From contig CAWDHZ010000014.1 in NCBI GenBank assembly GCA_963802225.1, positions 4,877-68,876 on the forward strand: a stretch of 64,000 bases of DNA, given 5' to 3'. Below the pieces are notes generated by a model. It was not told where the DNA came from and made no database searches. It was given only the letters and a program-made list of their open reading frames with translations. The stretch is from an uncultured delta proteobacterium. GTDB lineage: Bacteria; Desulfobacterota; Syntrophia; Syntrophales; UBA2192. Positions 1 through 51,402 of the stretch are shown here, piece by piece; the first letter of the stretch is position 1; each line of letters starts with the position of its first letter. The translations under genes and the position numbers were made by a program.

Positions 1-321
1 GGCAATGCGCCCGAAACTTGCCGCATCGACCCTCATGCCCAGGCTGTCGCCCGGCTCGGCCTCCTCGTCGAGTTCGCTCTTGGCTTGTTCCAGGGAGATC
101 TGTGTTTCGGGGTCGACCACCTTCTCGACAACCGTCTTGAACTGGAAGACCTCCAGTTCGCCCGCCTCTTCGTTGTACTTGGACTCGAGCTCCACCTTCG
201 CCCCCAGCTTTTTTCTCGCCGCGGTGAGGATGGCCGACTCCAGGGCCTCGATGATGACTTCCTTTTCGATTCCCTTGTCCTTGCCCATCTGCTCGATGAG
301 ACGTTTCAACTCCGGAAACAT
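1..321 (-). CDS. nusA: Transcription termination/antitermination factor NusA, N-terminal part (gene runs off the window start)
   Basis: Not in the ORF track because it is truncated by the window edge. Reverse-strand ATG at 321..319 is preceded by AGGAGG. Hand translation MFPELKRLIEQMGKDKGIEKEVIIEALESAILTAARKKLGAKVELESKYNEEAGELEVFQFK... looks like the NusA N-terminal domain. It sits directly downstream of rimP, as in the conserved rimP-nusA operon. Confidence 0.8.
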   Translation of the reverse strand, partial: MFPELKRLIEQMGKDKGIEKEVIIEALESAILTAARKKLGAKVELESKYNEEAGELEVFQFKTVVEKVVDPETQISLEQAKSELDEEAEPGDSLGMRVDAASFGRIA

Positions 322-353
322 GCTTGACCTCCTGGCTTTTCAAAACGGCACGG

Positions 354-429
354 GGCTAAAGGCTAAAGGCAAAAGGCATGAAGAGTCCTTCCCGTTCTAC
401 CTTTTGCCCTTGGCCTTTCGCCCTTCGCC
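354..429. repeat. Inverted pair of tandem heptamer arrays (GGCTAAA-type x3 at 354-376; CCYTTNG-type x4 at 400-429) around a 23-nt spacer
   Basis: Read directly: ggctaaaggctaaaggcaaaagg ... ccttttgcccttggcctttcgcccttcgcc. The arms are 20/23 complementary. The right arm encodes the last codons and the TAG (397-399) of rimP. Confidence 0.7.
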
Positions 430-897
430 GGTTAGTTCATATTCCAGATTCGCCTTCTGGATGTTGTCCCGGTCGATGCGGACGATCCTGCCGTCCACGT
501 CGACGGTGACGATCCTGCGGCCGTCCTCCATCAAATAGTCGACGAAGGTGCCCAGGAAATTCCTCGACCCGTCGATGGGCTCCCGCGTCCGGATCCGGAT
601 CCTGCCACCGCGGTACTTCTCGAAATCCTTGTCCCGGGTGAGGGGCCGGTCGAGCCCCGGGGACGACACTTCCAGGGTATAGGGACCCGGGGGCAGATCG
701 TGCACGTTGAGCAGATCGCCCACCTGGTGGCTGATGGCCGTGCAGTCCGCGAGGGTCGCACCGCCCTCGCGGTCGATGAAGATCCGAATGAGCCACCGGG
801 TCTGCATCCTGAGGCACTCGAGTTCCACGAGCTCCAGGCCTTCGGACTCGATCACCGGTTCGATCAGTCCGATGATCTCCTCGCGGTACGTGGCCAT
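397..897 (-). CDS. rimP: Ribosome maturation factor RimP
   Basis: ORF 397..1023(-) trimmed to the ATG at 897. MATYREEIIGLIEPVIESEGLELVELEC...EVSSPGLDRPL is the RimP/YhbC signature. It lies upstream of nusA. Confidence 0.85.
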   Translation of the reverse strand: MATYREEIIGLIEPVIESEGLELVELECLRMQTRWLIRIFIDREGGATLADCTAISHQVGDLLNVHDLPPGPYTLEVSSPGLDRPLTRDKDFEKYRGGRIRIRTREPIDGSRNFLGTFVDYLMEDGRRIVTVDVDGRIVRIDRDNIQKANLEYELTGEGRKAKGKR

Positions 898-934
898 CTT
901 CAGGCTCCCTGCCCTCGCCGCGCAAGCGGCGCCT

Positions 935-963
935 AAAATAAAAAAGTGGGCAAAAAGGCCCAC
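935..963 (-). terminator. Intrinsic terminator candidate after the tartrate-dehydrogenase-type gene
   Basis: Minus-strand hairpin GTGGGC-CTTTTT-GCCCAC (946..963) followed by a T-run (an A-run at 935..945 on the + strand). Confidence 0.5.
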
Positions 964-1047
964 TCGAATAGAAACCATTCGAATTTCAGGTGCTTTTCTA
1001 GCACAGAAAAAGCGCTCTTGCAAGCAAAAAACGTGGGACAGTCCCGG

Positions 1048-2103
<1,056 letters not shown>

Positions 2104-2324
2104 GGTCATCCTCCTCGCGTCATGTGTGCGCAACATAACCGATCGGGACCCTCCGGCACCCTGGAATGAATCTGCGCGGACACGGCAACTTTTTCAAGAA
2201 GGTATCGCAACTCATGCGAAATGGCAACCCGCAGATGATCGTGCACAAACGGAAGGCCCGGCGCAGGGCCAGGCCTTCTCGCTAGGGACAGGGAGCAATA
2301 CAGGCTCGGCGGGGAAGAGATCCT

Positions 2325-3194
2325 TTACCGGTCCGCCGGCGGGGTGTGCGCGGCGATGGCCCTGCGCAGCCCGTGGCCCAGGGCGTCGATCAGCGGCTCC
2401 TGCAGGATGCCGTTGTACTCGTCCATGTAGACCTTGGCGATCTCCGTGGGGAGAACCAGGATATGGGGATCCCAGCCCGTCAGGCGACGGCAGAGCTCCC
2501 CCGCGCCCGAAAAAACCCTGTTTTCCTCCACGGTGGTGCATATCCCCGGGATATCAATACAACTCAACTGATGCAGCCATGCATCGCTGAGGCTTCCCCA
2601 GCGCAATCGATCAAGCAGCGCCGTTCCGAGATTGAACAGAGGAGGATTCTTGATCCCTTTCTCGACCTGGCGTGAAATATTGTACGAGTGGATATCGTAG
2701 ACGACGCAGAAACCGAAACGCTCCAGCAGAACGCGGATGCAGCTGCCGGCAAATCGGTAAAACGCCTCGTACTTCTCCAGGGACCGGCGCACCATGGCCT
2801 CCGTCGGGGGGGCGCGGTAGACCTGCACGCCCCAGAACTGCTCCGCTGTGAGCGGAACAGCCTGCTCAGCGGGACGATTCAGATCGTACTCGGCCCTTGA
2901 ATCCAGGCCCCAGATGGCGTTGGCATTCCCCCGGATCATCCGGTCGGTTGCCGGGTCCTCTTCGAACAGGCGGACTTTTTCCGGGATCTGCATCAAGGGA
3001 AGGAGTTCCTCGCGGACGCTGTGCCCGGCATGGATGGCCACAACGAGCGCAGGCGTCGACAGATCCAGATCGAAGGCGAACCCGCCGGTCGCACTTCTCC
3101 CCTGGAGCCGCTTCGCGCTCCGGAGCTGTTCAATCACCTCGGGTTCGACAGGGATCCTCATAATAACGATCGTCCGGACTGCTGCACCCGTCAA
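2325..3194 (-). CDS. N-formylglutamate amidohydrolase (FGase)-fold zinc amidase
   Basis: VVAIHAGH...EEDPATD...DIHSY spacing resembles the FGase/HutG-family metal ligands. TTG at 3194 overlaps the upstream TGA (TTGA). An alternative ATG lies at 3161 (MRIPVEPEV). Confidence 0.6.
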   Translation of the reverse strand: MTGAAVRTIVIMRIPVEPEVIEQLRSAKRLQGRSATGGFAFDLDLSTPALVVAIHAGHSVREELLPLMQIPEKVRLFEEDPATDRMIRGNANAIWGLDSRAEYDLNRPAEQAVPLTAEQFWGVQVYRAPPTEAMVRRSLEKYEAFYRFAGSCIRVLLERFGFCVVYDIHSYNISRQVEKGIKNPPLFNLGTALLDRLRWGSLSDAWLHQLSCIDIPGICTTVEENRVFSGAGELCRRLTGWDPHILVLPTEIAKVYMDEYNGILQEPLIDALGHGLRRAIAAHTPPADR

Positions 3195-4192
3195 CTCCGG
3201 GTGCGTTCGTGGATCCCGTACCGCTCGAGTGCGGAATGCACGATCAGGTGGAGCATGTCCCGGTATTCTTCCATGGGCCCGCCCGCGGAGGGATGATAGA
3301 GCGAATAGATCTGGGGGCTCCAGCTCTTCACGGGCTTGAGTCCCGGGATCCCGTTGATCTCCATGACCCGCAAGCTGCCCCGGCCATCGACGCGCATGTC
3401 AACGCGGACATGGTCCCAGCACTGCAGGGCGTCGGTGGCCTTTCTGGTCAGCTCTTTGGCCTCCTCCGCCCTTTCCGTCGGGATGCTGATCCTGGTCAGC
3501 CCCACGCCCCGCAGATCGCTGCGCAGGATCTGATGCCTGCCGAAATGGTTCTTGTCGACGGTGACAAGCCCGGGCAGGATTTCCTGAAGCCTCCCGTTGC
3601 CCAGCATCAGGACCGTGTATTCCTCGCCGGGCAGGAACTCCTCGATGAGCGCGGCCTGCTCGAGCTTCTCATGCACATATTTGACGCGCAGCTCCATCTC
3701 TCGCAGGTTGTGGACCACGCTCTCGTCGCTGATGCCGACGGAGCGCGATTCGCAGTTGGGCTTGACGAAGGCCGGGTACGGGACATCGGGCAGCGCATCG
3801 CCTGCGGCCACCAGAGTGAAGGCCGGCACCAGCACCCCGTTTTCATGCATGATCCGGTGCGTCTCGTATTTCTGGATGAGCTGCTTCATCGTCAGGGCGT
3901 TGGGGCCGATGTACGGGATGTCCCTCTCGTCCAGGATGTCGGCGACCCATTCATTGTCGTCGCCCAGGCCGATGATGTCCTCGCGGTGCGAAAAATAGTA
4001 CAGGGCACTCCAGACGATATCGTAGCTGCGGCTCGAGATGGCCTTCATGAAGTCGTCCGCGGTGACGCAATAGGCAATCTCGGCCGTCAGATCCCCGCCA
4101 TTGAGGGTCTCGCACATCGTCTCGGTCACCTTCATGTCGCCCCACCCCTGGGCATCGCCGCCGGGGCCCGTTACGATCAACACCTTTCTCAT
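3191..4192 (-). CDS. ATP-grasp ligase (D-alanine--D-alanine-ligase-like)
   Basis: ORF 3191..4321(-) trimmed to ATG 4192, with GAGGAG upstream. PAFVKPNCESRSVGIS...IEEFLPGEEYTV...VRVDMRVDGRGSLRVMEINGIPGL is a typical ATP-grasp core. Confidence 0.7.
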   Translation of the reverse strand: MRKVLIVTGPGGDAQGWGDMKVTETMCETLNGGDLTAEIAYCVTADDFMKAISSRSYDIVWSALYYFSHREDIIGLGDDNEWVADILDERDIPYIGPNALTMKQLIQKYETHRIMHENGVLVPAFTLVAAGDALPDVPYPAFVKPNCESRSVGISDESVVHNLREMELRVKYVHEKLEQAALIEEFLPGEEYTVLMLGNGRLQEILPGLVTVDKNHFGRHQILRSDLRGVGLTRISIPTERAEEAKELTRKATDALQCWDHVRVDMRVDGRGSLRVMEINGIPGLKPVKSWSPQIYSLYHPSAGGPMEEYRDMLHLIVHSALERYGIHERTRS

Positions 4193-4209
4193 CCAGGACT
4201 CTCCTCGTA

Positions 4210-5118
4210 TCAAAAAGTAAACAAATCCGGATCGTGCCGGTACTGTCTCAACGCGCCGGCCGTAAGGGGCGATGCCGTTTCCAGAAGCCGGGCGATCGCC
4301 TCGATCTTCTCGTCGCTCCATACGATGCGCGAGACGACCTTCAAATCGATCCGGGCGTCCTTCTGTCCCAGGAGAGCGAAATCGGCAAGCATCGCATCAC
4401 TCATTGCCTTGTTGGGGTTGAGAATCGTGATCGGGCCCTCGAAGACGGACCGCAGGGCGGCCTCGAAGACGCGTTGACTGTACCCGTAATGCGTGCAGCA
4501 CAGGGCGGCCGCAACGGGCCCGCGCCTGTCCGGGACACGTTCGGCGGCCTGGCGGATGCAGCTCTCGATCATCGTCCGGACGGTTGCACCTTCCGGTGCC
4601 TTCTCGATCTCGCCCGCCAGTCGATCGCAGGGCTGGCAGATGATGCGTTCCGCGGCAATGCCCCGCCCGACAAGGCGCGTTCGATGGGTATCGGCTTCGA
4701 TGGTGGTGGGTGTGCCGAGAATGATGACGAGGCTGTCCGCCCGGGCGCTTAAATACGCGTGTATCAGGTCGACGCCGGAATCGATGATGCCGACCACCGG
4801 CACGGGGGCCTGCTTGCTGAACGGCGTGTGGGCATAGAGCGCCGACAGGGTATTGCAGGCGATCAGGATCAGATCGGGCTGAAAGCGAAGCATGGCGGCA
4901 AGCGCCCGGTCGAAGACGCGGATCCGCTCGGCCATGCCGGGCAGAAGATTATAGCCGCGGTCCTGCTCCGGCCAGGCGTTGAAGTAGGTCACCGCCACGG
5001 ACCGATAGCTTCGGCGTCTCTGCAGGCCTTTGACGATATCGGCGCAGATGGAGAGGCCGCCCATGCCCGAGTCGGCGATGACAATCGAGAGGGTATCTTT
5101 TGCTGCGGCTGCGTTCAT
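4210..5118 (-). CDS. Asp/Glu racemase family protein (glutamate-racemase-like)
   Basis: IVIADSGMGGLS...LILIACNTLSA...CCTHYG carries the two catalytic Cys motifs of MurI-type racemases. Its ATG lies 1 nt after the capA-like stop. Confidence 0.7.
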   Translation of the reverse strand: MNAAAAKDTLSIVIADSGMGGLSICADIVKGLQRRRSYRSVAVTYFNAWPEQDRGYNLLPGMAERIRVFDRALAAMLRFQPDLILIACNTLSALYAHTPFSKQAPVPVVGIIDSGVDLIHAYLSARADSLVIILGTPTTIEADTHRTRLVGRGIAAERIICQPCDRLAGEIEKAPEGATVRTMIESCIRQAAERVPDRRGPVAAALCCTHYGYSQRVFEAALRSVFEGPITILNPNKAMSDAMLADFALLGQKDARIDLKVVSRIVWSDEKIEAIARLLETASPLTAGALRQYRHDPDLFTF

Positions 5119-5119
5119 C

Positions 5120-6367
5120 TCACCGCACTCCCCCCGCTGGCCGCTTTCGCGTCAGCCATTCGGCGGCCAGGTCGAGGGCCCATTGCGGCGAGGCATCGAT
5201 GGTCCCGTCCATGATCCGGGTCATGGCATCGATCCAGTGCTCGCGGTGCTGCATGGTCGCGATGCGATTGCGCAGCATGGCGGCGCCCTTGGCCGGTTCC
5301 TGATCCATCTTCGCCAGGATCATCGCGATCTCGTCGCGAAAACCCTTGAGACCATAGTAACGCAGAAACCCGTGCCAGGCCTCAGTGATTCCGTCCGGTT
5401 GAGCCAGCGGCAGAGAGACCTTCTTCAGGGACTCGAAGAACTCGGCCGACTCGTCCCCCCGGAGCAGGCGGAGGGATTCGGTGCCGATTTCATAAGGAAT
5501 GAGTTCGATGTGCGAAAGGCCCGCCCGCGAGACGCCGGCCTTCACCAGGTATCCCAGCTTGCGGTAGTAGAGGTCGGTCTGCTGGTAAAAGACGAAGTTT
5601 CCCAGGCTGTAGCAGATGGGCACTCCGTTGCAGATCTCGACGCCCTGCGGAACATGGGGGTGATGGCCGATGACGAGATCGGCCCCGGCCTCGGCGATAC
5701 GCTGGAAGGCCGATGCCAGGTACGGCGGCGGAAAGGGGATATATTCGACCCCGCCGTGGCAGATCACAAGGATGACGTCAACCCCCGGCCTGATCGCACG
5801 GACGCTGTCCACAACCTCATCGACTTCCCATCCGAAGACGCCGGGTCCGGAGACGGCGGTAGTCAGATCCTCGCCTTCGCTGAAATTGACGATGCCGATG
5901 CGGACCCCGTTGAGATCGAGGATCAGGGGCCGGCGGGCCTCTTCGGCGGACATGCCCGCCCCGACGGAACGGATGGAGTTCTCGCTCAGCAGCTCCAGGG
6001 TCTGGCGGAAAGCCTCCGGACCATGGTCGAAGACATGATTGTTTCCCAGCGTGACGACCTCGAAGGGGACTGCCGTCAGCCCGCGGATGTGCTCGGGACG
6101 ACCTTTGAAGACCGAGCCGCTCTTCCATACCGGGGATGCGTCTGTCGACAGCGCGCATTCCAGATTGACAATGCGCAGATCGCCCTGGCGCAGGAGCGGC
6201 AACACGTCGCCGTAGACCGCCTCGGGAGAACGGGCAACGATCTCGTCGAAGGCCCGTATGGGCGCCCAGTCGGAGGCGATTACGATTTCGGCCCGGGCCC
6301 GGGGAGCCGCTGCGCTGGTCCATCGGCCCCTGCTCCAGTCAAACCCTTCCAGTCCGGTTTTTTTCAT
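5120..6367 (-). CDS. CapA-family protein (poly-gamma-glutamate capsule synthesis family, metallophosphatase fold)
   Basis: GDLRIVNLECALS...VVTLGNNHVFDHG...VICHGGVEY...LVIGHHPHVPQG...YSLGNFVF. ORF 5120..6427(-); I prefer the ATG at 6367 (MKKTGLEG). Confidence 0.75.
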   Translation of the reverse strand: MKKTGLEGFDWSRGRWTSAAAPRARAEIVIASDWAPIRAFDEIVARSPEAVYGDVLPLLRQGDLRIVNLECALSTDASPVWKSGSVFKGRPEHIRGLTAVPFEVVTLGNNHVFDHGPEAFRQTLELLSENSIRSVGAGMSAEEARRPLILDLNGVRIGIVNFSEGEDLTTAVSGPGVFGWEVDEVVDSVRAIRPGVDVILVICHGGVEYIPFPPPYLASAFQRIAEAGADLVIGHHPHVPQGVEICNGVPICYSLGNFVFYQQTDLYYRKLGYLVKAGVSRAGLSHIELIPYEIGTESLRLLRGDESAEFFESLKKVSLPLAQPDGITEAWHGFLRYYGLKGFRDEIAMILAKMDQEPAKGAAMLRNRIATMQHREHWIDAMTRIMDGTIDASPQWALDLAAEWLTRKRPAGGVR

Positions 6368-6564
6368 CCTCGTGCTCTCGGATCTGAACTCTGTTTCTCG
6401 CCCCGCACTCCCGGGAACCCCCTTCATCGAAGCCGGATGAATGCTGAAAAGACACCGCTTTTTGACGTGCGGAGTATAGGATGCACATTCGGGCGTGTCA
6501 ACGGGACAATTGCCGCGAGCAGCCGCCTCATCTGGCCGTGTCTTGGGGGTCGAGTGTTGATTCT

Positions 6565-7497
6565 TTACCGTTTCATATCATTGAGCAGGTTTGAAGGCGA
6601 ATACTGATCGGAAAGAATTTTTGCATTCACATCCCAGTCTCGGTCAGTCGAAAACAAAGGCAACAGGAAATCCGCTTCAACATGGAACGGTCGAAGAGCA
6701 GCTTCGAGCATCGCGGCGTTCCTTCTAATCGCTTCTTTCAGGGGCAATGCTCCCCTTTTAATGAGAATGACCCTGTTTTGATACTTTAGATTGAGGAATG
6801 TTCCGAAGACGGATTCATACGTCGCGGATTCGTGATCATAAAGCCGGCTCGTCGAAAATGTATTTGCTACCAAAACGCCTTCCGGATTCATAATCTGCTT
6901 TACTTCGTCTAGAAATTCCCTCGTCAACAGATGTTCGGGTATGTATTGATGATCAAAGGCATCCAGCATGATCAGATCGTATATCACTCCCTTCTTTATG
7001 GCGCGCTTCACAAACACGCGCCCGTCTTCCTCAATGACCTTCATCCTGGAGTTCGTCTGAAAATTAAAGTGTTTTTTTGCCACACGCACGACGGCGGGGT
7101 CTATTTCCACCGAATCAATTTCCGAATTGGGCAGAATCTTCGAAAGGGCAGACGGCAATGTGCCCCCGCCCAGGCCGATAATCAGTATCTTGTCCGGCGC
7201 GGGCAGAAGGTACAGCGCGGCCATCATCATCTTCGTATACGGAATGACCATGCTGTCGGGATCCTGAAGCGAGATGCAGGTCTGCCTGTTGATTGACTTG
7301 CTGTTTTTTGAGAACCGCATGCAGCGCTCACCGTCTTTTTCATAGACCGTGATGTTCCTGTACAAAGAACGTTCTGTATGAAGAACCGTGTCGTTCCTGG
7401 TAAAAAGAGGGTAAAGGGCATCCATTCCCAATGTAAGCAAGGGCGCCAAAATCCCCAGGGCTAACAGGAGCAGCACGATTTTATTGGTTCTCGGCAT
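6565..7497 (-). CDS. Spermidine-synthase-like methyltransferase-fold protein (C-terminal module of a fused membrane/SpeE-type protein)
   Basis: ILIIGLGGGTLPS...IDSVEIDPAVV...DLIMLDAFD is an aminopropyltransferase/SAM-MTase motif set, preceded by an N-terminal TM helix. ATG at 7497 (TTG 7524 in the track). AT-rich codon usage. Confidence 0.7.
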   Translation of the reverse strand: MPRTNKIVLLLLALGILAPLLTLGMDALYPLFTRNDTVLHTERSLYRNITVYEKDGERCMRFSKNSKSINRQTCISLQDPDSMVIPYTKMMMAALYLLPAPDKILIIGLGGGTLPSALSKILPNSEIDSVEIDPAVVRVAKKHFNFQTNSRMKVIEEDGRVFVKRAIKKGVIYDLIMLDAFDHQYIPEHLLTREFLDEVKQIMNPEGVLVANTFSTSRLYDHESATYESVFGTFLNLKYQNRVILIKRGALPLKEAIRRNAAMLEAALRPFHVEADFLLPLFSTDRDWDVNAKILSDQYSPSNLLNDMKR

Positions 7498-8083
7498 TTC
7501 TCCCCCCGGCGATAAACGCGACAAAACTCATCAGCATGGATATGCCTATCATGATCCAGACGATCAGGTTTACTTCCAGATAGAGAACCAGATAAAACGA
7601 CGTCAGAAGGGTCCCTGCTGCACTGCCGAACGTCGACACGAAGTAAAGAATTCCGGCACAGTTGCCGCTTTGATCGAGGTCTTTCACGAGCAGGCGGACA
7701 GCATAGGGAGAAACCATCCCCGATATCAGTGTGGGAACAAAGAAAAAGATTGTCGCAGACAGGAGTGAACCGTATCTGGGGTCTTGAATGACGGAGAATA
7801 TATTTTCAAAAGCGGTCTCTCCGATTAATGCAACCGGCGACGTCGACAAAGCCGCGCTGATCAAAATTACCGAAAGTTTTCTCAGGGAAGGTTGCTGAAC
7901 CGAAAGCCGGCCGCCAATAAGATAGCCGATCGATAAAGCCAGCATGAATACGGTGATAATGCCGCCCCAGACGTAAATGCTGTTACCGAAATGGGGCGCG
8001 AGAATTCGCCCGCTGAGCAACTCGACTGCCATGACAAAGAAACCGGACCAACCGGCTATGATAAAAACCAGATATCTGCTCAT
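7481..8083 (-). CDS. Polytopic membrane protein (N-terminal module of a fused membrane/spermidine-synthase-type protein)
   Basis: ORF 7481..8215(-) trimmed to ATG 8083. MSRYLVFIIAGWSGFFVMAVELLSGRILAPHFGNSIYVWGGIIT... has about 6 hydrophobic helices. It overlaps the next ORF by 17 nt across a C6/G6 run (7502-7507). Confidence 0.6.
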   Translation of the reverse strand: MSRYLVFIIAGWSGFFVMAVELLSGRILAPHFGNSIYVWGGIITVFMLALSIGYLIGGRLSVQQPSLRKLSVILISAALSTSPVALIGETAFENIFSVIQDPRYGSLLSATIFFFVPTLISGMVSPYAVRLLVKDLDQSGNCAGILYFVSTFGSAAGTLLTSFYLVLYLEVNLIVWIMIGISMLMSFVAFIAGGRNAENQ

Positions 8084-8348
8084 AAAGGCCCCTTTAGTCT
8101 GGAGCGTATTCCGGCATGTGATACTTGACTCGCACGGCTTCTGTATCATCGCAAGCTCGATTCGTGAATATGTCGTGATCCGGACAAAAGCGCATTGACC
8201 GTGACTTCTTCTCAAGCTGCTACATATACACTGGTCAGTTGCCTATGGAAATGCAATATATCCAAGAGCTCGAACTGCACAGGCATGGTTTGAAAGATTT
8301 TTCACCGGATTTTTTCAGCAGGGGCTTGTTTCAGATACGCACTTGAAA

Positions 8349-8384
8349 TGATGGATAAAAATGGAGCGGGCGATGGGATTCGAA
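8349..8384 (-). repeat. Direct repeat A: 13-nt flank plus 23 nt identical to the 3' end (T-loop to CCA) of the tRNA-Gly at 35835-35909
   Basis: tgatggataaaaa-tggagcgggcgatgggattcgaa. The last 23 nt are identical to 35835-35857. No cloverleaf can be completed. Confidence 0.65.
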
Positions 8385-8635
8385 AACAACCCCAAGCCCG
8401 CGTGGTGCTGGGTTCAGGGCTACTGCCGGATTTTTTCCGGATTTCGAATTTAACTACGCCTTTCTTCTTTCTCCCCGAATCGGACGCCCGGCTCAACACC
8501 CTGAGACATTTATTCATTCTGAATAGAGGGAAGGAAGTTTAAAAAAGTGTCCATTCATGAAATATTACTACTCAAAATACAACATATATGAACTTTCTGT
8601 TGATTATGGTTTAAATATGTGTCTAATAGAGAAGC

Positions 8636-9412
8636 ATGACTACTGATAACAGAACAAAAATAAACAAATTAATAAGCCAATGGCCTCGGGGCACGGTGGC
8701 CTCAACGGCTTACTTGAAAGAACTAGGATTATCTCAGGAGCTCCTTGCCTGGTACAAACGGAGCGGCTGGCTAGAATCCTACGGCCGCGGCGCTTATCTC
8801 CTTGCCGGGGACAAGGTCGAGTGGACCGGCGCCCTGTACGCCCTCCAAAAACATTTGAAGATGTCTGTCCATACAGGCGGCAAGACGGCCCTGGAGCTGA
8901 AGGGCTACGGTCATTTTGTTCCGATGAGGCAAAAGATTTTTCTCTATGGCGAAAGGGGCCTGACGCTGCCCGCCTGGTTTAAAAAGTCCATGCAGCACAG
9001 GGATTTCGTATACGTGATGACCAACCTGTTTCCCCTTGGGTATGAAGACGGTCTGACCGAGTTCAAATCGGGCGAGTTTGCCGTAATCGTTTCGGCGCCG
9101 GAAAGGGCCGCCATGGAAATGCTTCACCTGGTCCCGAAAGTCGTTGGGTTTGAGCAAGCGTCGCTGATCATGGAGAATCTGGCGGGTTTGCGCCCCGAGC
9201 TTGTTCAGAAGCTTTTGGAGACCTGCCGGTTCGTCAAAGTAAAGCGGCTCTTTCTCTACTTTGCGGAGAAATATTCTCATCCATGGTTTTCCCGACTGGA
9301 TTTGTCAAGACTAGACTTGGGAAAGGGAAAGAGGCTGATCGTGCCGCATGGAATGCTGGACAAAAAATATCAGATCACCGTTCCCAGACAGGAAAGAGAA
9401 TCGACGGAGTGA
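8636..9412 (+). CDS. AbiEi-family antitoxin-like transcriptional regulator (type IV TA system)
   Basis: 258 aa. N-terminal wHTH-like ...YLKELGLSQELLAWYKRSGWLESYGRGAYLL... and C-terminal ...VKVKRLFLYFAEKY... resemble AbiEi_3-type antitoxins. Its stop overlaps the GTG of an AbiEii-like start (GTGA). Confidence 0.65.
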   Translation: MTTDNRTKINKLISQWPRGTVASTAYLKELGLSQELLAWYKRSGWLESYGRGAYLLAGDKVEWTGALYALQKHLKMSVHTGGKTALELKGYGHFVPMRQKIFLYGERGLTLPAWFKKSMQHRDFVYVMTNLFPLGYEDGLTEFKSGEFAVIVSAPERAAMEMLHLVPKVVGFEQASLIMENLAGLRPELVQKLLETCRFVKVKRLFLYFAEKYSHPWFSRLDLSRLDLGKGKRLIVPHGMLDKKYQITVPRQERESTE

Positions 9413-9537
9413 AGGACTCGATCTTCTATAAGCAGGCGGAACTCGTCTTGCGGATCCTGCCGGACATTCTGGTCGAGGAGATCTTCGCACTGAAAGGAGG
9501 AACGGCAATCAATTTCTTTTTCAGGGACCTGCCCCGC
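9409..9537 (+). pseudogene. 5' fragment (about 43 codons) of an AbiEii/AbiGii nucleotidyltransferase toxin gene
   Basis: VKDSIFYKQAELVLRILPDILVEEIFALKGGTAINFFFRDLPR matches the conserved AbiEii N-terminus (..ALKGGTA.N.F.RD.PR then LSVDIDL). After 9537 the frame continues as unrelated GC-rich sequence to 9699. Confidence 0.55.
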
Positions 9538-9695
9538 CACGACCCCATCGATCCCGACGTGATGAAGCGCCACCCGCCTGAGTGCATGACGAAGCGCAAC
9601 TTCCTCCGCACGATGCGCCTGCTTCTCGCCGCGGGCGCCATCCCGCTTTTGATTCCGGAGAGGGTGAAGGGGGTGCGGCACGCCCGGCAGAAAGG

Positions 9696-10583
9696 ATGAG
9701 ACGCAGTCAGATGAATATACCAAGCCGGCTTCACCAAGAGACTCGCAGGGTCTGGGCGGTACTGTGTCTCGCCGTGAAAAATTTTTTCCGGATTAACGGG
9801 GTGCAGTGGGCGGGAGCGTTTGCCTTCAATGCGTTCTTCTCGCTGTTTCCCTTGATGATCCTGCTCGTCACGATTGCCTCTTTCTTTGTTGACCGGGACC
9901 AGGCCGGGAAAGAGGTCATTGCCTTCATGGAAAACTACGTCCCGATCAGCGGCAAGATGCAAACTCATATTTTTGAAACCATCACCGGCGTGATCAAAGC
10001 GCGCGGGCAGGCGGGTGTGGTCGCATTTCTCATCCTGCTGTGGGTCGTCCTCCAATGTTTTATCACCCTCATCTGCGCGATCAACCACGCCTGGGGTACC
10101 GCGGTGAACAACTGGTGGCGGCTGCCGTTGAAAAGCCTGGTGCTGCTCGGCATCACGGCGGGTGCGTTCCTTCTGGGCATGGCGGTGCCGGTTATGGCAA
10201 AAATGGCGAAGGATTGGCTCTTTCCAGTGAATGATTTCAGTTCCTGGGTCTATGCCATGGGGAGCTTTTTCATTCCCTTGCTGGTGGTCTTCCTCAGCCT
10301 CAGCCTTTTTTACTGGCTGGCCCCGCGCCGGCCCACGCGCTTTGCCGAAGTCTGGGTTTCCGCCCTTTGCGCCACGGCTCTCCTGCTGGCGACCGAAAGT
10401 CTGTTCGTGATGTACCTCAAGAACTTCGCTACGTTAAACGCGGTCTATGGGGCGTTCGGCGGGATCATGGCATTGCTGCTGTGGATTTACCTTTCCGGGT
10501 GCATTTTCATCTTCGGCGCCTGCCTGTGCGCCGCTCAGGCCGAAGGGCGTTCAGCGCAGGCGAAAACAATCAAGGCGCGCTAA
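9696..10583 (+). CDS. YihY/BrkB-family inner-membrane protein
   Basis: ORF 9582..10583 trimmed to ATG 9696, with GAAAGG upstream. ...FFRINGVQWAGAFAFNAFFSLFPLMILLVTI... plus six TM segments is typical of the YihY family. Confidence 0.75.
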   Translation: MRRSQMNIPSRLHQETRRVWAVLCLAVKNFFRINGVQWAGAFAFNAFFSLFPLMILLVTIASFFVDRDQAGKEVIAFMENYVPISGKMQTHIFETITGVIKARGQAGVVAFLILLWVVLQCFITLICAINHAWGTAVNNWWRLPLKSLVLLGITAGAFLLGMAVPVMAKMAKDWLFPVNDFSSWVYAMGSFFIPLLVVFLSLSLFYWLAPRRPTRFAEVWVSALCATALLLATESLFVMYLKNFATLNAVYGAFGGIMALLLWIYLSGCIFIFGACLCAAQAEGRSAQAKTIKAR

Positions 10584-10601
10584 AAAAAGGAGCACTGAAC
10601 C

Positions 10602-10712
10602 ATGAACAAAAAAACGCTTTCCCCGGAACTACTCCACAAGATGGGTGCCTGCTGGCGCGCAGCCGACGATCTGTCCGTCGGCCAGTTGAACTGGGAGCTG
10701 ACCCATGAATAA
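10602..10712 (+). pseudogene. 5' stub (36 codons) of a phosphoketolase (xfp-type) gene
   Basis: Below the ORF-track size cut-off. AAGGAG RBS, then MNKKTLSPELLHKMGACWRAADDLSVGQLNWELTHE*. Phosphoketolases start ..LSPELL.KMDAYWRAANYLSVGQIYL... The TAA at 10710-10712 overlaps the next gene start (10705). Confidence 0.55.
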
Positions 10713-12051
10713 GTTCACGCAACTCTGGAGCAATCTGCGGTCGAGCTTTTGGTTTATGCCTTCATTGATTGTCGTGTTCAGCATTGCCTTCGCGGTAGCG
10801 TTGATCGAAGCAGACTCCGCCGGGAGCGACCGATGGCTGGCCCAGTGGCCGCGCCTGTTCGGGGCCGGGGCGGAAGGCGCGCGCGGGATGATGTCCACGA
10901 TTGCCGGTTCGATGATGTCCGTGGTGGGCGTCGCGTTCTCCATGATCCTGGTGGTGCTGGCGCTGGCTTCGAGCCAATACACCTCGCGCATCCTGCGGAA
11001 CTTCATGCGCAGTCGCGTCACGCAGGTCGTGCTTGGGATCTTCGCCGGCATTTTCACGTATTGCCTGATCGTGTTACGCACCATTCGCAGCGGCGACGAG
11101 GGCGCATTTGTTCCAAGCCTGGCGGTGTTCTTCGGCTTCGCGCTGGCACTCGGAGGTGTTGGCGCCCTCATGTTCTTCATTCATCATATCGCCTCTTCGA
11201 TCCAGGCTTCCAGCATCATCGCCTCGGTCGCTCAGGAAACCATCGCGGCCGTCGACCGGCTGTTTCCGGAAAAACTCGGACAAGGGCCGGGCGAAGACGA
11301 TGATGACCAGACGCTGCGCCCCCTATCCGAGCGGACTTGGCGCGCCGTCCCGGCCAGGGAGAGCGGCTATATCCAGAGCGTCAATAACGCGGCGCTCCTA
11401 AGCTTGGCGCGGGACAGGAAAACCATCGTGAGGATGGAGCACGGCATTGGCGAGTTCGTTGTCCAGAACACCACTCTGGCCTCACTCGCCCTGGAAGACC
11501 CGCCGGATCAAGAGACGATTGACGCCCTGCAGGCGACTTTCAGCATCAACCGCTACCGCACGGTGGAGCAGGACGCGGCCTTCGGAATCAGGCAGATCGT
11601 GGATGTGGCGTTGAAAGCACTCTCCCCCGGCATCAACGACGTCACGACAGCCGTGACGTGCGTGGATTATCTGACGGCGATTCTGGCGCGGCTGGCGCCT
11701 CGGAAAATTCCCTCATCGCACCGTTACGAGGAGGGGGTACTGCGAGTGATCGCCGAAGGCCCGAGCTTTGAAAGCATGCTGGCTGAATCGTTCGACCAGA
11801 TTCGAAACAACGCCAAAGGCAATGTCACCATCATATCGCGGATGCTCGACGCCTTTCAAACCCTTGCCGGCTTGACGGCCAGCCCACAACGCCGGCGGGC
11901 GCTTCGCGAGCAAGTGCAATGGATCGCCGAGTTGACCGAGCGTACCGTCGAGTCTGCTCATGACCGTGCGAGGATCGACACGCGGCTGGAGCGCCTGCGC
12001 GAAACGCTCGAAGCCGAGCCTGCGCGGTGTCCGGTGGAGGAGAAGGAATAG
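10705..12051 (+). CDS. DUF2254-family membrane protein
   Basis: 448 aa. N-terminal MNKFTQLWSNLRSSFWFMPSLIVVFSIAFAVALIEAD plus four TM helices and a large soluble C-terminal domain, as in the DUF2254 family. Confidence 0.65.
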   Translation: MNKFTQLWSNLRSSFWFMPSLIVVFSIAFAVALIEADSAGSDRWLAQWPRLFGAGAEGARGMMSTIAGSMMSVVGVAFSMILVVLALASSQYTSRILRNFMRSRVTQVVLGIFAGIFTYCLIVLRTIRSGDEGAFVPSLAVFFGFALALGGVGALMFFIHHIASSIQASSIIASVAQETIAAVDRLFPEKLGQGPGEDDDDQTLRPLSERTWRAVPARESGYIQSVNNAALLSLARDRKTIVRMEHGIGEFVVQNTTLASLALEDPPDQETIDALQATFSINRYRTVEQDAAFGIRQIVDVALKALSPGINDVTTAVTCVDYLTAILARLAPRKIPSSHRYEEGVLRVIAEGPSFESMLAESFDQIRNNAKGNVTIISRMLDAFQTLAGLTASPQRRRALREQVQWIAELTERTVESAHDRARIDTRLERLRETLEAEPARCPVEEKE

Positions 12052-21810: not shown

Positions 21811-22172
21811 CGACATGGGGTGCCCTTCTGCGAGAGCAACCGATAAATAGGGATAGTGAAAACATCGTTCATTCTATGCTCTTTTTAGTAAAGGGTTCAG
21901 ACTTTTTTCTAGAGGAAGCATCAAGTCCGGTCGGGCCGGCGGCTTTTGCACTCGCCCCATCCATCTTCGGTAATCGATCATGAAAATGAGATGGAATATG
22001 CCATCTTGGAATTGGAAAACAATTAGGTTAGAATAGGACCATGTTTCCACAGCTCCATCCATTGGACGCTTCTTTCCCTTTCACCTCGTCCGACACCCTG
22101 AGTGAGTCGAATAACCGCGGGTGAAGACCCGGCCCATTTCAAGGCAACAAACGGCTGATCAAGGAGGTCGTG

Positions 22173-23660: not shown

Positions 23661-24433
23661 TGCCGTCAACGGAGATTCCCCTGCAGCGGCTATGGGTATT
23701 CGATTTCGACGGAACCCTGTCCCCCCTGGTGCCCGATCGGGATACCGCAGCGCTTCTTCCCGAAGGCAGGGAGTTGCTGTCGGCACTTGTGAGGCTGCCC
23801 CGGCAGGGCGTGGCCATACTCTCGAGCAGGCTGCTCGACGATCTGATCCCGAGAGTGGACCTGGACGGGCTCTACCTGGGAGGCGGCAGCGGCGCCGAGT
23901 GGCTTTTGCCAAACGGGGAGCGCAGGATCGCGGAAAACAAAACGCAGCGGCTGGAGAGTGCCAGAAATGCCGTCATGCCGGAACTTGCAACGCTGTCGGG
24001 TATCCAGGGTGTCGATCTGGAGGACAAAAAGTGGTCTGTCGCCATTCATGTAAGACACGTGTCGCCCGATGACCGGAAACGGGTATTCGATTTTCTTTCG
24101 GCGCTGAGCCGCACCACCGGCATTCGTATGCTCCGGGGCCCGGAGGTTTTTGAAATCCAGCTTCTGCCGGAGATCGACAAGCTTTTCGGCGTCAGGGTCC
24201 TTTGCGGGATGCTCAATTTTGTGCCTGCGCAAGGTTCACTGGTGTATGCCGGTGACGATGAAAACGATGCAATCGTCATGGACTGGGTGCTCCGGAATGG
24301 GGGAGTTGCCCTGACCGTCGGGCGAGTTCCACTCGTCCCAGGGGCACTGGTTCTTGAACACCCGGCAGCCCTGGTGTCGGAAGTCAGCAGGCTGGCCGGT
24401 CTGCGAGCAACGAGACAGGAGGTGGCAACATGA
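23660..24433 (+). CDS. otsB: Trehalose-6-phosphate phosphatase (HAD-IIB)
   Basis: LWVFDFDGTLSPLV...YAGDDENDA. I prefer the GTG at 23660 (GGAGG 7 nt upstream, 1-nt overlap with the otsA TAG) over the track ATG 23600. Confidence 0.8.
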   Translation: MPSTEIPLQRLWVFDFDGTLSPLVPDRDTAALLPEGRELLSALVRLPRQGVAILSSRLLDDLIPRVDLDGLYLGGGSGAEWLLPNGERRIAENKTQRLESARNAVMPELATLSGIQGVDLEDKKWSVAIHVRHVSPDDRKRVFDFLSALSRTTGIRMLRGPEVFEIQLLPEIDKLFGVRVLCGMLNFVPAQGSLVYAGDDENDAIVMDWVLRNGGVALTVGRVPLVPGALVLEHPAALVSEVSRLAGLRATRQEVAT

Positions 24434-27337: not shown

Positions 27338-27362
27338 ATCGGACAAGGAGGAAGCGATCACC

Positions 27363-51376: not shown

Positions 51377-51402
51377 GTCACCGATCCTCGCTTCTGTTCA
51401 GT

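What the first reader, a model, noticed from the sequence alone, without database searches (positions are those of the whole stretch)
2325..6427. CapA / Asp-Glu racemase / ATP-grasp ligase / FGase-fold amidase operon without CapB or CapC
Seen in sequence: four minus-strand genes with coupling-type junctions. The capA-like TGA at 5120 sits 1 nt before the racemase ATG at 5118. There is a 17-nt gap to the ATP-grasp ATG at 4192. The ATP-grasp TGA at 3191 overlaps a TTG at 3194. Motifs support each call (see features). Established knowledge: CapA belongs to the poly-gamma-glutamate capsule system. There polymerisation is done by the Mur-ligase-like CapB/PgsB together with CapC, and a glutamate racemase supplies D-Glu. 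The FGase family hydrolyses N-acyl-glutamate amides. Ddl-like ATP-grasp enzymes make amide bonds between (D-)amino acids. Here CapB and CapC are absent and an ATP-grasp enzyme occupies the ligase slot. Inference: this is a CapBC-independent pathway that makes and trims a D-Glu-containing amide, oligomer or envelope polymer, or recycles one. I cannot tell from memory whether this exact four-gene set has been characterised.
Basis: partly seen in the sequence, partly recalled or inferred. Interest (0 to 1): 0.7.

Follow-up and report, generated by a model that had tools for sequence, protein, structure and literature searches.

The report
Conserved cytoplasmic D-amino-acid ligase operon
Four soluble enzymes (a CapA/MslH-type metalloenzyme, a glutamate-racemase-like protein, a D-Ala-D-Ala-ligase-like ATP-grasp enzyme and a formylglutamate-amidase-like hydrolase) form an uncharacterised operon conserved across many anaerobic bacteria; it most likely makes and turns over a small D-alanine/D-glutamate peptide, not a capsule.

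Summary
Four co-directional minus-strand genes lie between a strong sigma-70-like promoter (6501-6473) and a terminator-like hairpin (2270-2255), and all four domain calls are confirmed. Two starts need correction: CapA-like ATG 6367, FGase-like ATG 3161.

The set is not a chance neighbourhood. Among 80 related loci from Syntrophales, Desulfobacterales, Desulfomonilia, Holophagaceae, Lentisphaerae, Kiritimatiellia and Spirochaetota, the racemase-like gene accompanies the ATP-grasp gene in 65/69 informative loci. The CapA-like gene does so in 63/69 and the FGase-like gene in 30/73.

In about half the loci a bona fide alanine racemase and a group-II D-amino-acid transaminase-like gene sit directly upstream. 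The transaminase-like gene keeps the residues that bind D-Glu. Gene order varies, but the set stays together.

All four proteins are soluble. No CapB/CapC was found in the Pfam-scanned ORFs of the window or among the conserved gene clusters of the related loci. Each protein scores far below the curated thresholds for Ddl, MurI, MslH or HutG.

Best reading: a cytoplasmic module that racemises, ligates and hydrolyses a small D-Ala/D-Glu-containing peptide. The CapA/MslH-like enzyme may epimerise it. The product is unknown.

I found no paper or curated family describing this cluster. A cultured carrier exists: Desulfocicer vacuolatum DSM 3385.

The parts
6473..6501 (-). sigma-70-like promoter (TTGACA, 17 nt, TATACT) upstream of the operon
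   Evidence: 11 of 12 consensus matches. It lies in the 137-nt gap between the low-GC upstream genes and the CapA-like ORF.
5120..6367 (-). Soluble CapA/PgsA/MslH-family (PGA_cap, calcineurin-like fold) metalloenzyme, 415 aa. The mechanical ORF extends to ATG 6427.
   Evidence: Pfam PGA_cap 197.6 bits. Best NCBIfam hit is the epimerase MslH, 64.9 bits against a cut-off of 700. The only PDB relatives are MslH 8GQ9, 8GQB and 8ITH. The counterparts of MslH Asp11, Glu44, Asn87, His88, Asp91, His259 and His295 are invariant as D53, E90, N130, H131, D134, H224 and H258 in 435-aa ORF numbering. No TM segment. Start inferred from homologues.
4210..5118 (-). Divergent glutamate-racemase-like (Asp/Glu racemase superfamily) protein, 302 aa, with a C-terminal extension
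   Evidence: Pfam Asp_Glu_race 38.4 bits. TIGR00067 glutamate racemase 48.6 bits against a cut-off of 146.65. All PDB hits are MurI. The DSG, C88-N-T, G-T and C208-T-H motifs are invariant in 20 family members. Present next to the ATP-grasp gene in 65 of 69 informative loci.
3191..4192 (-). Ddl-like ATP-grasp amide ligase, 333 aa, from a distinct and highly conserved subfamily (N-terminal GPGGDAQGWG, ESRS and LRSDLRGVGLT motifs)
   Evidence: Pfam Dala_Dala_lig_C 70.2 bits. Ddl models score 73-86 bits against cut-offs of 243-246. AF2 model has pLDDT 85, and its best PDB matches are Ddl at TM about 0.72 and about 20% identity. The counterparts of DdlB K144, R255, D257, E270 and N272 are kept, while S150 is an Arg invariant in the close family. 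More than 1000 homologues, the best 120 of them 59-96% identical. 263 hits among GTDB species genomes.
2325..3161 (-). Distant FGase-fold (N-formylglutamate-amidohydrolase family) metallo-amidase, 278 aa. The mechanical ORF extends to TTG 3194.
   Evidence: Pfam FGase 55 bits. No NCBIfam hit and no PDB sequence hit. AF2 model has pLDDT 92, and its best PDB folds are the FGases 2Q7S and 2ODF at TM 0.63-0.67 and 18-20% identity, followed by M14 carboxypeptidases. Conserved HAGH, DLNR, DIHSYN and LPTE motifs. Present in 30 of 73 loci.
2255..2270 (-). terminator-like GC hairpin with a T-rich tail, 55 nt after the FGase-like stop codon
   Evidence: It is followed by a 189-nt gap before the tartrate-dehydrogenase-like gene.

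Best explanation
The operon encodes a cytoplasmic pathway for a small peptide containing D-amino acids. The most likely product is a D-Ala/D-Glu dipeptide or very short oligomer with Glu as the C-terminal (amine-donor) residue.

Proposed steps, all inferred from homology and context:
1. The MurI-like enzyme uses two-cysteine acid/base chemistry to supply D-Glu, or to invert a Glu-like substrate.
2. Where present, Alr makes D-Ala and the group-II D-amino-acid transaminase interconverts D-Ala + 2-oxoglutarate and pyruvate + D-Glu.
3. The Ddl-like ATP-grasp enzyme activates one carboxylate as an acyl phosphate and forms the amide bond. The Arg residues R150, R224 and R228 are specific to the close subfamily and suggest an acidic substrate.
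4. The soluble CapA/MslH-like metalloenzyme acts on the product, most plausibly by epimerising the residue that carries the free C-terminal carboxylate, as MslH does.
5. The FGase-like amidase hydrolyses the N-acyl-Glu-type bond, for turnover or editing. It is an accessory part, present in about 40% of loci.

Shown: gene content, synteny, fold and catalytic-residue conservation, and soluble localisation. Inferred: substrates, order of steps and product.
For: Synteny across at least 6 phyla:
- Racemase-like gene in 65/69 informative loci and CapA-like gene in 63/69.
- Alr in 31/58 and the class-IV aminotransferase in 34/58.
- FGase-like gene in 30/73.
- Rearranged orders keep the set together: Grasp-FGase-AT4-Alr-CapA-Race in the Spirochaetota and Leptospirales loci L025 and L035; Race-Grasp-CapA in L030, L032 and L049; FGase-AT4-CapA-Race-Grasp in L066.
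- Tight spacing and co-varying divergence.

Neighbouring genes:
- The neighbour Alr passes the equivalog threshold (405 bits against 168), as does alanine dehydrogenase (506 against 392).
- The class-IV aminotransferase is closest to the characterised non-canonical D-amino-acid transaminases 7P7X and 8AHR. It keeps the Arg and Lys that bind the alpha- and gamma-carboxylates of D-Glu in AmicoTA (PMC10003956).

The four proteins:
- The ATP-grasp enzyme has a Ddl fold with catalytic residues conserved.
- MurI catalytic motifs are invariant.
- MslH catalytic dyads are conserved.
- The FGase fold is confirmed.
- All four proteins lack TM segments.

Distant relatives:
- Distant members of the same ATP-grasp family are again adjacent to an Asp/Glu-type racemase (L084, L092).
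- In an archaeal-type context the neighbour also includes a protein with FGase-like motifs.

Precedent: a racemase and an ATP-grasp D-amino-acid ligase share one operon in aslA-racD (PMC4155827).
Against: - No product, substrate or activity is known for any member.
- The MurI-like protein differs from MurI in the segment that aligns with the MurI 'PYG' segment, which I recall, from my own knowledge, contacts the Glu side chain. It may not act on free Glu.
- If it is a plain Glu racemase, it is redundant with Alr plus the transaminase.
- An epimerase role for the CapA-like protein rests on a single characterised homologue at low identity. MslH His261 is not conserved (Gly226 here).
- The window itself, like other Syntrophales loci, lacks Alr and the transaminase nearby. 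D-Ala involvement is therefore inferred from other lineages.
- About ten Lentisphaeria/Victivallaceae loci have the ATP-grasp gene alone.
- Encoding both a ligase and a hydrolase for the same bond looks futile unless they are regulated.
Confidence: 0.45

Rival explanations
1. Peptidoglycan-precursor modification or an alternative stem-peptide building block. The racemase supplies a D-acidic amino acid. The ATP-grasp ligase then attaches it, or a D-Ala-D-X depsipeptide-like unit, to a UDP-MurNAc-peptide or makes a non-standard D-Ala-D-X terminus. This resembles AslA/RacD or the Van ligase + racemase + dipeptidase sets, with the FGase-like enzyme playing the VanX-like editing role.
For: - The fold and best sequence matches are Ddl and VanA.
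- There is a precedent for an ATP-grasp ligase and an Asp/Glu-family racemase in one operon (PMC4155827).
- Alr and a D-amino-acid transaminase are classical peptidoglycan-supply enzymes.
- The high conservation (about 60% identity between phyla) fits a housekeeping envelope function.
Against: - The operon is never seen next to mur, ddl or fts genes in the 80 loci.
- No Mur-type or Fem-type partner is conserved nearby.
- The CapA/MslH-like enzyme has no role in known schemes of this kind.
- The carriers are Gram-negative lineages. From my own knowledge, no D-Glu or D-Asp side-chain peptidoglycan is described for them.
Confidence: 0.2
2. Salvage or catabolism of D-amino acids and peptidoglycan-derived peptides. 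The FGase-like amidase and the CapA-like enzyme process imported D-Glu/D-Ala peptides. The racemases, the transaminase and alanine dehydrogenase funnel D-Glu and D-Ala into pyruvate, 2-oxoglutarate and ammonia.
For: - Alr, the D-amino-acid transaminase and alanine dehydrogenase together form a complete D-Glu/D-Ala to pyruvate route.
- A Na+/alanine symporter fragment and amino-acid metabolism genes flank one locus (L081).
- Epimerisation of a C-terminal Glu in a dipeptide is used in peptidoglycan recycling by YcjG (my own knowledge).
Against: - An ATP-consuming ligase is the most conserved member and has no obvious catabolic role.
- No peptide transporter or periplasmic binding protein is conserved with the set.
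- The FGase-like hydrolase, which would be the entry step, is the least conserved member (30 of 73 loci).
Confidence: 0.12
3. A CapBC-independent poly- or oligo-gamma-glutamate-like polymer, possibly for the envelope. The ATP-grasp enzyme replaces PgsB, and the CapA-like protein plays the same role as PgsA.
For: - PGA_cap is a strong Pfam hit.
- CapA has been proposed to be the epimerase that introduces D-Glu into PGA (PMC8179263).
- Some ATP-grasp enzymes act iteratively, such as RimK and cyanophycin synthetase (my own knowledge).
Against: - There are no TM segments or signal peptides.
- No PgsC-like or exporter gene is conserved.
- The ligase is Ddl-like, a single-turnover dipeptide type, not RimK-like.
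- Linkage to Alr argues for a hetero-peptide.
Confidence: 0.07
4. Nothing special: these are the organism's housekeeping murI and ddl, which happen to lie beside two unrelated hydrolase genes.
For: The best-scoring curated models for the two proteins are MurI and Ddl.
Against: - Scores are 3-5 times below the equivalog and subfamily cut-offs.
- The Pfam Ddl N-terminal domain was not detected, and an HHalign comparison did not align the N-terminal ~50 residues with DdlB. DdlB Ser150 is an Arg that is invariant in the close family.
- The four- to six-gene set is conserved and rearranged as a unit across phyla.
- The family is far more conserved than I recall Ddl orthologues to be (my own knowledge for the Ddl comparison; for this family).
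Confidence: 0.04

Closest known systems
D-alanine-D-alanine ligase / VanA-type ligases (ATP-grasp, Ddl family)
   Same: Same fold (TM about 0.72). The ATP/Mg and acyl-phosphate residues are conserved (counterparts of DdlB K144, R255, D257, E270, N272). A racemase is genomically linked, as in the van clusters.
   Different: About 20% identity. Scores are far below the curated Ddl and Van cut-offs. The N-terminal domain is different (QGWG motif). DdlB Ser150 is an Arg invariant in the close family, and the omega-loop is different (LRSDLRGVGLT). The gene is not in a dcw or van context.
AslA/Aslfm D-aspartate ligase + RacD aspartate racemase operon of lactic acid bacteria
   Same: One operon combines an Asp/Glu-superfamily racemase with an ATP-grasp ligase that uses the D-acidic amino acid it makes (PMC4155827).
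   Different: The ligase here is Ddl-like and the racemase is MurI-like rather than AspR-like. The CapA/MslH-like and FGase-like partners are extra. The hosts are Gram-negative. The acceptor is unknown.
MslH, lasso-peptide C-terminal Trp epimerase (PDB 8GQ9)
   Same: It is the only solved relative of the CapA-like protein. It shares the calcineurin-like fold family, is also soluble, and its two His/Asp dyads and most metal ligands are conserved here.
   Different: It scores 64.9 bits against a cut-off of 700 for the MslH equivalog. None of the other lasso-peptide (msl) biosynthesis genes appears among the conserved neighbour genes. MslH His261 is not conserved. The family here has its own roughly 130-aa C-terminal helical region.
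PgsBCA / CapBCA poly-gamma-glutamate synthetase
   Same: It shares the PGA_cap domain, and D-Glu supply by a glutamate racemase is part of the classical system (my own knowledge).
   Different: There is no PgsB (Mur-ligase type) or PgsC. The CapA-like protein has no membrane anchor. The ligase belongs to a different superfamily. Everything is cytoplasmic.
HutG N-formylglutamate amidohydrolase (FGase family, PDB 2Q7S/2ODF)
   Same: Same fold (TM 0.63-0.67). Pfam FGase is above its threshold. Motifs of the HAG / DxNR / H-S type are present.
   Different: 18-20% identity. There is no NCBIfam hit, no hut genes nearby, and the gene is linked to a ligase instead of histidine catabolism.
Alr + D-amino-acid transaminase (Dat) D-Ala/D-Glu supply pair; non-canonical DAATs of Haliscomenobacter and Aminobacterium
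   Same: In about half the loci, an equivalog-level Alr and a transaminase carrying the AmicoTA D-Glu-binding Arg and Lys sit directly upstream in the same orientation (PMC10003956).
   Different: Neither gene is present in this window's 64 kb. The transaminase of this cluster has not itself been assayed.

Membership tests
D-alanine-D-alanine ligase (Ddl) | Scores above the curated NCBIfam Ddl thresholds | tested here: not met
   PRK01372 scores 86.4 bits against 243. TIGR01205 scores 73 against 245.65.
D-alanine-D-alanine ligase (Ddl) | ATP-grasp fold with the catalytic Lys/Arg/Asp/Glu/Asn of DdlB (K144, R255, D257, E270, N272) | tested here: met
   HHalign to DdlB gives 97.9% probability, with the counterparts K144, R263, D265, E278 and N280. 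Of these, K144, R263 and D265 are invariant across the whole family, including the distant clusters, while E278 and N280 are invariant only in the close family. Foldseek TM about 0.72 to Ddl structures.
D-alanine-D-alanine ligase (Ddl) | First D-Ala site triad Glu15-Ser150-Tyr216 and the Ddl N-terminal domain | tested here: not met
   The Ser150 position is an Arg invariant in the close family. The N-terminal ~50 residues do not align with DdlB and carry a family-specific GPGGDAQGWG motif. The omega-loop differs. Pfam Dala_Dala_lig_N was not detected.
Glutamate racemase (MurI) | Scores above the TIGR00067 / PRK00865 thresholds | tested here: not met
   48.6 bits against 146.65, and 46.1 against 328.
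Glutamate racemase (MurI) | Two catalytic cysteines in CNT and CTH motifs plus the DSG motif | tested here: met
   D16, S17, G18, C88, N89, T90, C208, T209 and H210 are invariant in 20 members. They align with MurI 1B73 and 3UHF.
Glutamate racemase (MurI) | Racemisation of free glutamate | not testable with these tools
   The segment aligning with the MurI 'PYG' segment is different here. An enzyme assay is needed.
PgsA/CapA of the poly-gamma-glutamate synthetase complex | PGA_cap domain | tested here: met
   PF09587 scores 197.6 bits against a cut-off of 27.
PgsA/CapA of the poly-gamma-glutamate synthetase complex | N-terminal membrane anchor and genetic linkage to PgsB (Mur-ligase-like) and PgsC | tested here: not met
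   The maximum 19-residue hydropathy is 1.47, so there is no TM segment. No such families appear in the window ORFs scanned with Pfam or among the conserved neighbour clusters I identified.
MslH-type peptide C-terminal epimerase | Catalytic dyads His88/Asp91 and His295/Asp11, and metal ligands Glu44, Asn87, His259, His261 | tested here: inconclusive
   Seven of the eight are conserved and invariant (D53, E90, N130, H131, D134, H224, H258). His261 is Gly, with an invariant Glu two residues later. These residues are also typical of metallophosphoesterases, so they do not prove epimerase activity.
MslH-type peptide C-terminal epimerase | Equivalog score and lasso-peptide (RiPP) gene context | tested here: not met
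   NF038314 scores 64.9 bits against 700. The conserved neighbour genes identified by Pfam and NCBIfam are amino-acid-metabolism enzymes, not lasso-peptide genes.
HutG N-formylglutamate amidohydrolase | FGase fold and Pfam family | tested here: met
   PF05013 scores 55 bits against 28.9. The AF2 model matches 2Q7S and 2ODF at TM 0.63-0.67.
HutG N-formylglutamate amidohydrolase | Orthology to HutG (curated model, hut operon context) | tested here: not met
   There is no NCBIfam hit at E<=0.01 and no PDB sequence hit. The neighbours are ligase and racemase genes, not hut genes.

The most novel reading that the evidence does not exclude
A 'ligate, then epimerise' route in primary metabolism. A Ddl-like ATP-grasp enzyme makes a small Glu-terminated peptide, and a soluble CapA/MslH-type metalloenzyme inverts its C-terminal residue. 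This would be the first small-molecule role for the CapA/PgsA family. It would yield a previously undescribed D-amino-acid metabolite common to many anaerobes (Syntrophales, Desulfobacterales, Holophagae, PVC bacteria, spirochaetes). It would also give a soluble, tractable model for the unresolved function of PgsA/CapA in poly-gamma-glutamate synthesis.
Probability: 0.22. Interest if true: 0.8.

Novelty: new variant of a known kind. Interest (0 to 1): 0.58.

Why it matters
- The module is widespread. There are 263 hits among the one-per-species GTDB genomes scanned and more than 1000 protein clusters, and the ligase stays about 60% identical between phyla. Yet it has no curated family, no name beyond 'hypothetical' or 'D-alanine-D-alanine ligase', and no paper that I could find.
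- It links four stereo-inverting or D-specific enzymes to an ATP-dependent ligase. This implies a D-Ala/D-Glu metabolite, or an envelope modification, that is currently unknown in ecologically important anaerobes such as syntrophs and sulfate reducers.
- Its soluble CapA/MslH homologue could settle what the CapA/PgsA family does chemically.
- A practical point: automatic annotation of these genes as capsule synthesis, Ddl, MurI and HutG is misleading.

Tried and rejected
- Literature: nine full-text searches found no description of this cluster. The Iyer/Aravind 2009 amidoligase survey could not be read.
- Rfam: no riboswitch or leader in 1-12000, only palindrome noise at 342-434.
- RiPP idea: the gene junctions are too tight to hold a precursor ORF, and the conserved neighbours are amino-acid-metabolism enzymes rather than RiPP-maturation genes. 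Rejected.
- Polyamine link: the spermidine-synthase-like neighbour lies in a low-GC segment and accompanies the operon only in the window and one close relative, L004. Rejected.
- Extended Desulfobacterales neighbours: the TAL-like, alanine dehydrogenase and HisC-like genes occur in only 16-17 of 47 loci. I treat them as lineage-specific context.
- Lentisphaeria loci with the ATP-grasp gene alone: the neighbours were uninformative.
- Distant relatives: several contigs were too short to be useful.
- DestiTA: I could not show that the published Desulfomonile D-amino-acid transaminase is the orthologue of the cluster's transaminase.
Pocket-level analysis of the AF2 models was not possible because coordinates are not returned.

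Full report
OBSERVATION

The junctions read exactly as described:
- The CapA-like TGA (5122-5120) is followed by one base and then the racemase ATG at 5118.
- The racemase TGA (4212-4210) is followed by a 17-nt spacer containing GAGGAG and then the ATP-grasp ATG at 4192.
- The ATP-grasp TGA (3193-3191) overlaps a TTG at 3194.

Pfam confirms all four domain calls above the gathering thresholds: PGA_cap 197.6 bits, Asp_Glu_race 38.4, Dala_Dala_lig_C 70.2 and FGase 55.

Two details need correction:
- Homologues of the FGase-like protein are 278 aa and start at the position of ATG 3161. The TTGA overlap is therefore probably not the real start.
- Homologues of the CapA-like protein start just before the DW..G.W motif, which favours ATG 6367 over 6427.

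A near-consensus sigma-70-type promoter (TTGACA-17-TATACT, 11/12) lies at 6501-6473. A GC hairpin with a T-rich tail lies at 2270-2255, both on the minus strand. The four genes look like one transcription unit.

The operon has the G+C content of the surrounding genome (0.61-0.64). The genes immediately upstream (6.5-9.5 kb) have a G+C content of 0.47-0.51 and look like an insertion.

IS IT MORE THAN A CHANCE NEIGHBOURHOOD?

The ATP-grasp protein belongs to a large, tightly conserved family. More than 1000 database clusters match it, and the best 120 are 59-96% identical and almost all about 329 aa long.

A scan of one genome per GTDB species found 263 encoded relatives. The best 80 loci come from Syntrophales, Desulfobacterales, Desulfomonilia, Holophagaceae, Lentisphaerae/Victivallaceae/Oligosphaeraceae, Kiritimatiellia, Verrucomicrobiota, Spirochaetota and Leptospirales.

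I searched those loci with tblastn using the window's proteins. Counting only loci with enough flanking sequence:

| Gene | Loci carrying it |
|---|---|
| Racemase-like | 65 of 69 |
| CapA-like | 63 of 69 |
| FGase-like | 30 of 73 |

Further signs of a functional unit:
- Median gaps are 12, 36 and 18 nt. The identities of the four proteins to the window's copies co-vary across loci with r = 0.94-0.97. They are inherited as a unit.
- Gene order is sometimes rearranged, yet the set stays together. Race-Grasp-CapA occurs in L030, L032 and L049. Grasp-FGase-AT4-Alr-CapA-Race occurs in the spirochaete loci L025 and L035. FGase-AT4-CapA-Race-Grasp occurs in L066.

I clustered all neighbouring ORFs. 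Two further genes lie directly upstream and in the same orientation in about half of the loci.

The first is a bona fide alanine racemase. TIGR00492 scores 405 bits against a cut-off of 168. It is present in 31 of 58 loci.

The second is a class-IV aminotransferase, present in 34 of 58 loci.
- Its best solved relatives, apart from an archaeal 'putative branched-chain aminotransferase' (5MQZ, 144 bits), are the characterised non-canonical D-amino-acid transaminases of Haliscomenobacter (7P7X/7P8O) and Aminobacterium (8AHR).
- It conserves the Arg (R27) and Lys (K240) that bind the alpha- and gamma-carboxylates of D-glutamate in AmicoTA. It also conserves R90, the catalytic Lys and the PLP-binding Glu.
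- The archaeal branched-chain enzyme 5MQZ lacks both R27 and K240 (PMC10003956).

In a subset of Desulfobacterales (16-17 of 47 loci), an equivalog-level alanine dehydrogenase, a HisC-like aminotransferase and a transaldolase-like gene precede these two.

The window has none of these genes within its 64 kb. In Syntrophales the unit is the bare four genes.

A cultured isolate, Desulfocicer vacuolatum DSM 3385, carries the complete six-gene version with overlapping junctions (L094).

THE FOUR PROTEINS

(i) ATP-grasp enzyme.
- The AF2 model (pLDDT 85) matches Ddl structures best, at TM about 0.72 and about 20% identity.
- A profile alignment to E. coli DdlB shows that the ATP/Mg/acyl-phosphate residues are conserved: K144, R263, D265, E278 and N280, matching DdlB K144, R255, D257, E270 and N272.
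- DdlB Ser150, part of the first D-Ala site, is an Arg that is invariant in the close family. The omega-loop reads LRSDLRGVGLT. The N-terminal domain does not align with Ddl and carries a GPGGDAQGWG motif.
- Curated Ddl and Van models score 3-5 times below their cut-offs.
- In a 1.84-billion-protein representative library, the close family collapses into one 50%-identity cluster. About 25 more distant full-length clusters share the QGWG and VWS.LY motifs. Most of these have Glu instead of Arg at position 150 and lack the Arg-rich loop.
- The Arg residues specific to the close subfamily point to an anionic substrate. This is an inference.

(ii) Racemase-like protein.
- All of its PDB hits are glutamate racemases.
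- The DSG, Cys88-Asn-Thr, Gly-Thr and Cys208-Thr-His motifs are invariant.
- It scores 48.6 bits against 146.65 for TIGR00067.
- It differs in the segment that aligns with the MurI 'PYG' segment, which I recall, from my own knowledge, contacts the Glu side chain.
- It has a C-terminal extension.

(iii) CapA-like protein.
- Its only solved relative is MslH, the Ca(II)-dependent epimerase of the C-terminal Trp of a lasso-peptide precursor (PMC10406935).
- The MslH dyads His88/Asp91 and His295/Asp11, and the ligands Glu44, Asn87 and His259, are invariant here. His261 is not conserved.
- The protein has no membrane anchor. From my own knowledge, PgsA/CapA does have one.

(iv) FGase-like protein.
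- It has no PDB sequence match.
- Its AF2 model (pLDDT 92) superposes best on the two N-formylglutamate amidohydrolase structures 2Q7S and 2ODF, at TM 0.63-0.67. M14 carboxypeptidases come next.

None of the four proteins has a transmembrane segment.

No Mur-ligase-type (CapB) or CapC family occurs in the window ORFs scanned with Pfam. None occurs among the conserved neighbour clusters that I identified.

DISTANT RELATIVES

Two more distant members of the ATP-grasp family again sit next to an Asp/Glu-type racemase:
- L084 lies inside what looks like a secondary-metabolite cluster. It contains LuxI/LuxR, two AMP-binding enzymes, a PhzF-like protein, a decarboxylase-like protein and an amidohydrolase.
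- L092 is in an archaeal-type context. Its overlapping four-gene operon encodes an ATP-grasp-like protein, the Ddl-like ligase, the racemase and a 257-aa protein with FGase-like HAG / NLNR / IHTS motifs.

The racemase + ligase pair, with or without the amidase, therefore seems to be the ancient core. The CapA-like enzyme is an addition specific to the close subfamily.

HOW IT MOST LIKELY WORKS

This section is inference. All components are cytoplasmic.
- Alr and the D-amino-acid transaminase can supply D-Ala and D-Glu.
- The MurI-like enzyme can supply D-Glu or invert a Glu-like compound.
- The Ddl-like ligase forms one amide bond through an acyl phosphate.

By analogy, both the FGase-like and the MslH-like enzymes act on a residue that carries a free alpha-carboxylate and an acylated amine. 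These are the Glu of N-formyl-Glu and the C-terminal residue of MslA. That fits a product of the type X-Glu, for example D-alanyl-glutamate.

In this scheme the CapA-like enzyme would invert the C-terminal stereocentre, and the FGase-like enzyme would hydrolyse the bond for turnover or editing.

I give this general reading (a small cytoplasmic D-Ala/D-Glu peptide that is made and turned over) a probability of about 0.45. The specific order of steps is much less certain.

Rivals, with my probabilities:
- Modification or replacement of a peptidoglycan precursor unit, as in AslA/RacD (PMC4155827) or the Van clusters: 0.2.
- Salvage or catabolism of D-amino-acid peptides: 0.12.
- A CapBC-independent polyglutamate-like polymer: 0.07.
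- Ordinary murI and ddl genes: 0.04.

COMPARISON WITH WHAT IS KNOWN, AND NOVELTY

Each protein belongs to a known superfamily, but each fails the curated test for the named enzyme (Ddl, MurI, MslH, HutG). The system lacks the defining partners of the poly-gamma-glutamate machinery.

Public sources name these proteins only as 'hypothetical', 'ATP-grasp domain-containing', 'D-alanine-D-alanine ligase' or 'N-formylglutamate amidohydrolase'. Nine full-text literature searches found no description of the cluster.

I therefore rate it as a new variant of a known kind, namely racemase-coupled ATP-grasp D-amino-acid ligase systems. It is distinguished by a soluble CapA/MslH-type enzyme and an FGase-fold amidase.

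Limits on this judgement:
- Subscription literature could not be searched.
- No whole-genome checks were possible.

Interest is moderate to high. The module is widespread and strongly conserved in ecologically important anaerobes. It implies an unknown D-amino-acid metabolite or envelope feature. It also offers a soluble model for the unresolved CapA/PgsA chemistry. The product remains unknown, however, and the mechanism is inferred only from homology and context.

Noticed in passing
window 6565-9412: A low-GC segment (0.47-0.51, against 0.60-0.65 in the flanks) lies directly upstream of the operon. It holds a fused-type MFS/spermidine-synthase gene split into two ORFs that overlap by 44 nt (7481-8215 matches the N-terminal half of NF037959, 6565-7524 the C-terminal half). 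It also holds an AbiEi-type antitoxin gene (8636-9412) with no obvious AbiEii partner. It looks like an insertion, possibly with a frameshifted gene.
   Followed up: partly
window 22170-28625: A run of compatible-solute-type genes: GT20 trehalose-6-phosphate synthase (22170-23660), TreT-like trehalose synthase (25098-26336), a HAD phosphatase (26351-27337) and a mannosylglycerate-synthase-like GT2 (27363-28625).
   Followed up: no
window 1048-2136: The gene just downstream of the operon passes the tartrate dehydrogenase equivalog threshold (TIGR02089, 561 bits against 470), not the threshold for 3-isopropylmalate dehydrogenase. It and RimP stay next to the operon only in close Syntrophales relatives (L001, L002, L004, L011).
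   Followed up: partly
window 343-433: An imperfect 34-nt inverted repeat (79% complementary, 23-nt loop) overlaps the 3' end of rimP. It produced spurious miRNA-family hits on both strands in Rfam.
   Followed up: partly
L092 6952-10651: In an archaeal-type context (Thy1, wyosine and archaeal CCA-enzyme neighbours) lies an overlapping four-gene operon. It encodes a 350-aa ATP-grasp-like protein with no Pfam hit, a distant member of the same Ddl-like family, an Asp/Glu racemase, and a 257-aa protein with FGase-like motifs but no Pfam hit.
   Followed up: partly
L084 2830-16589: Another distant family member and its racemase lie inside a likely secondary-metabolite cluster. The cluster contains LuxI/LuxR, a radical SAM enzyme, a TylF-type methyltransferase, an Orn/DAP-decarboxylase-like protein, a cupin, a PhzF-like protein, two AMP-binding enzymes and an amidohydrolase.
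   Followed up: no
L094 10001-16359 (Desulfocicer vacuolatum DSM 3385, FWXY01000012.1): This cultured sulfate reducer carries the full six-gene version (class-IV aminotransferase, Alr, PGA_cap, racemase-like, Ddl-like, FGase-like). A divergent class-III aminotransferase, a GntR/FCD regulator and acetate kinase lie upstream. Its racemase-like protein has no precomputed Pfam hit at all.
   Followed up: partly
L053, L055, L057, L060, L061, L063, L067, L071, L072: In gut and rumen Lentisphaeria and Victivallaceae, the ATP-grasp gene (about 60% identical) stands alone, often right after phosphoglycerate kinase. No racemase, CapA-like or FGase-like gene is found within the sequence held for these loci (flanks range from under 1 kb to 8 kb).
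   Followed up: partly
window 12747-14975 and 48620-53036: A heavy-metal P-type ATPase with two HMBD motifs lies at 12747-14975. At 48620-53036 lie a fused 918-aa TRAP-type DctM transporter, a DUF1850 gene and an NMT1_3-family binding protein.
   Followed up: no
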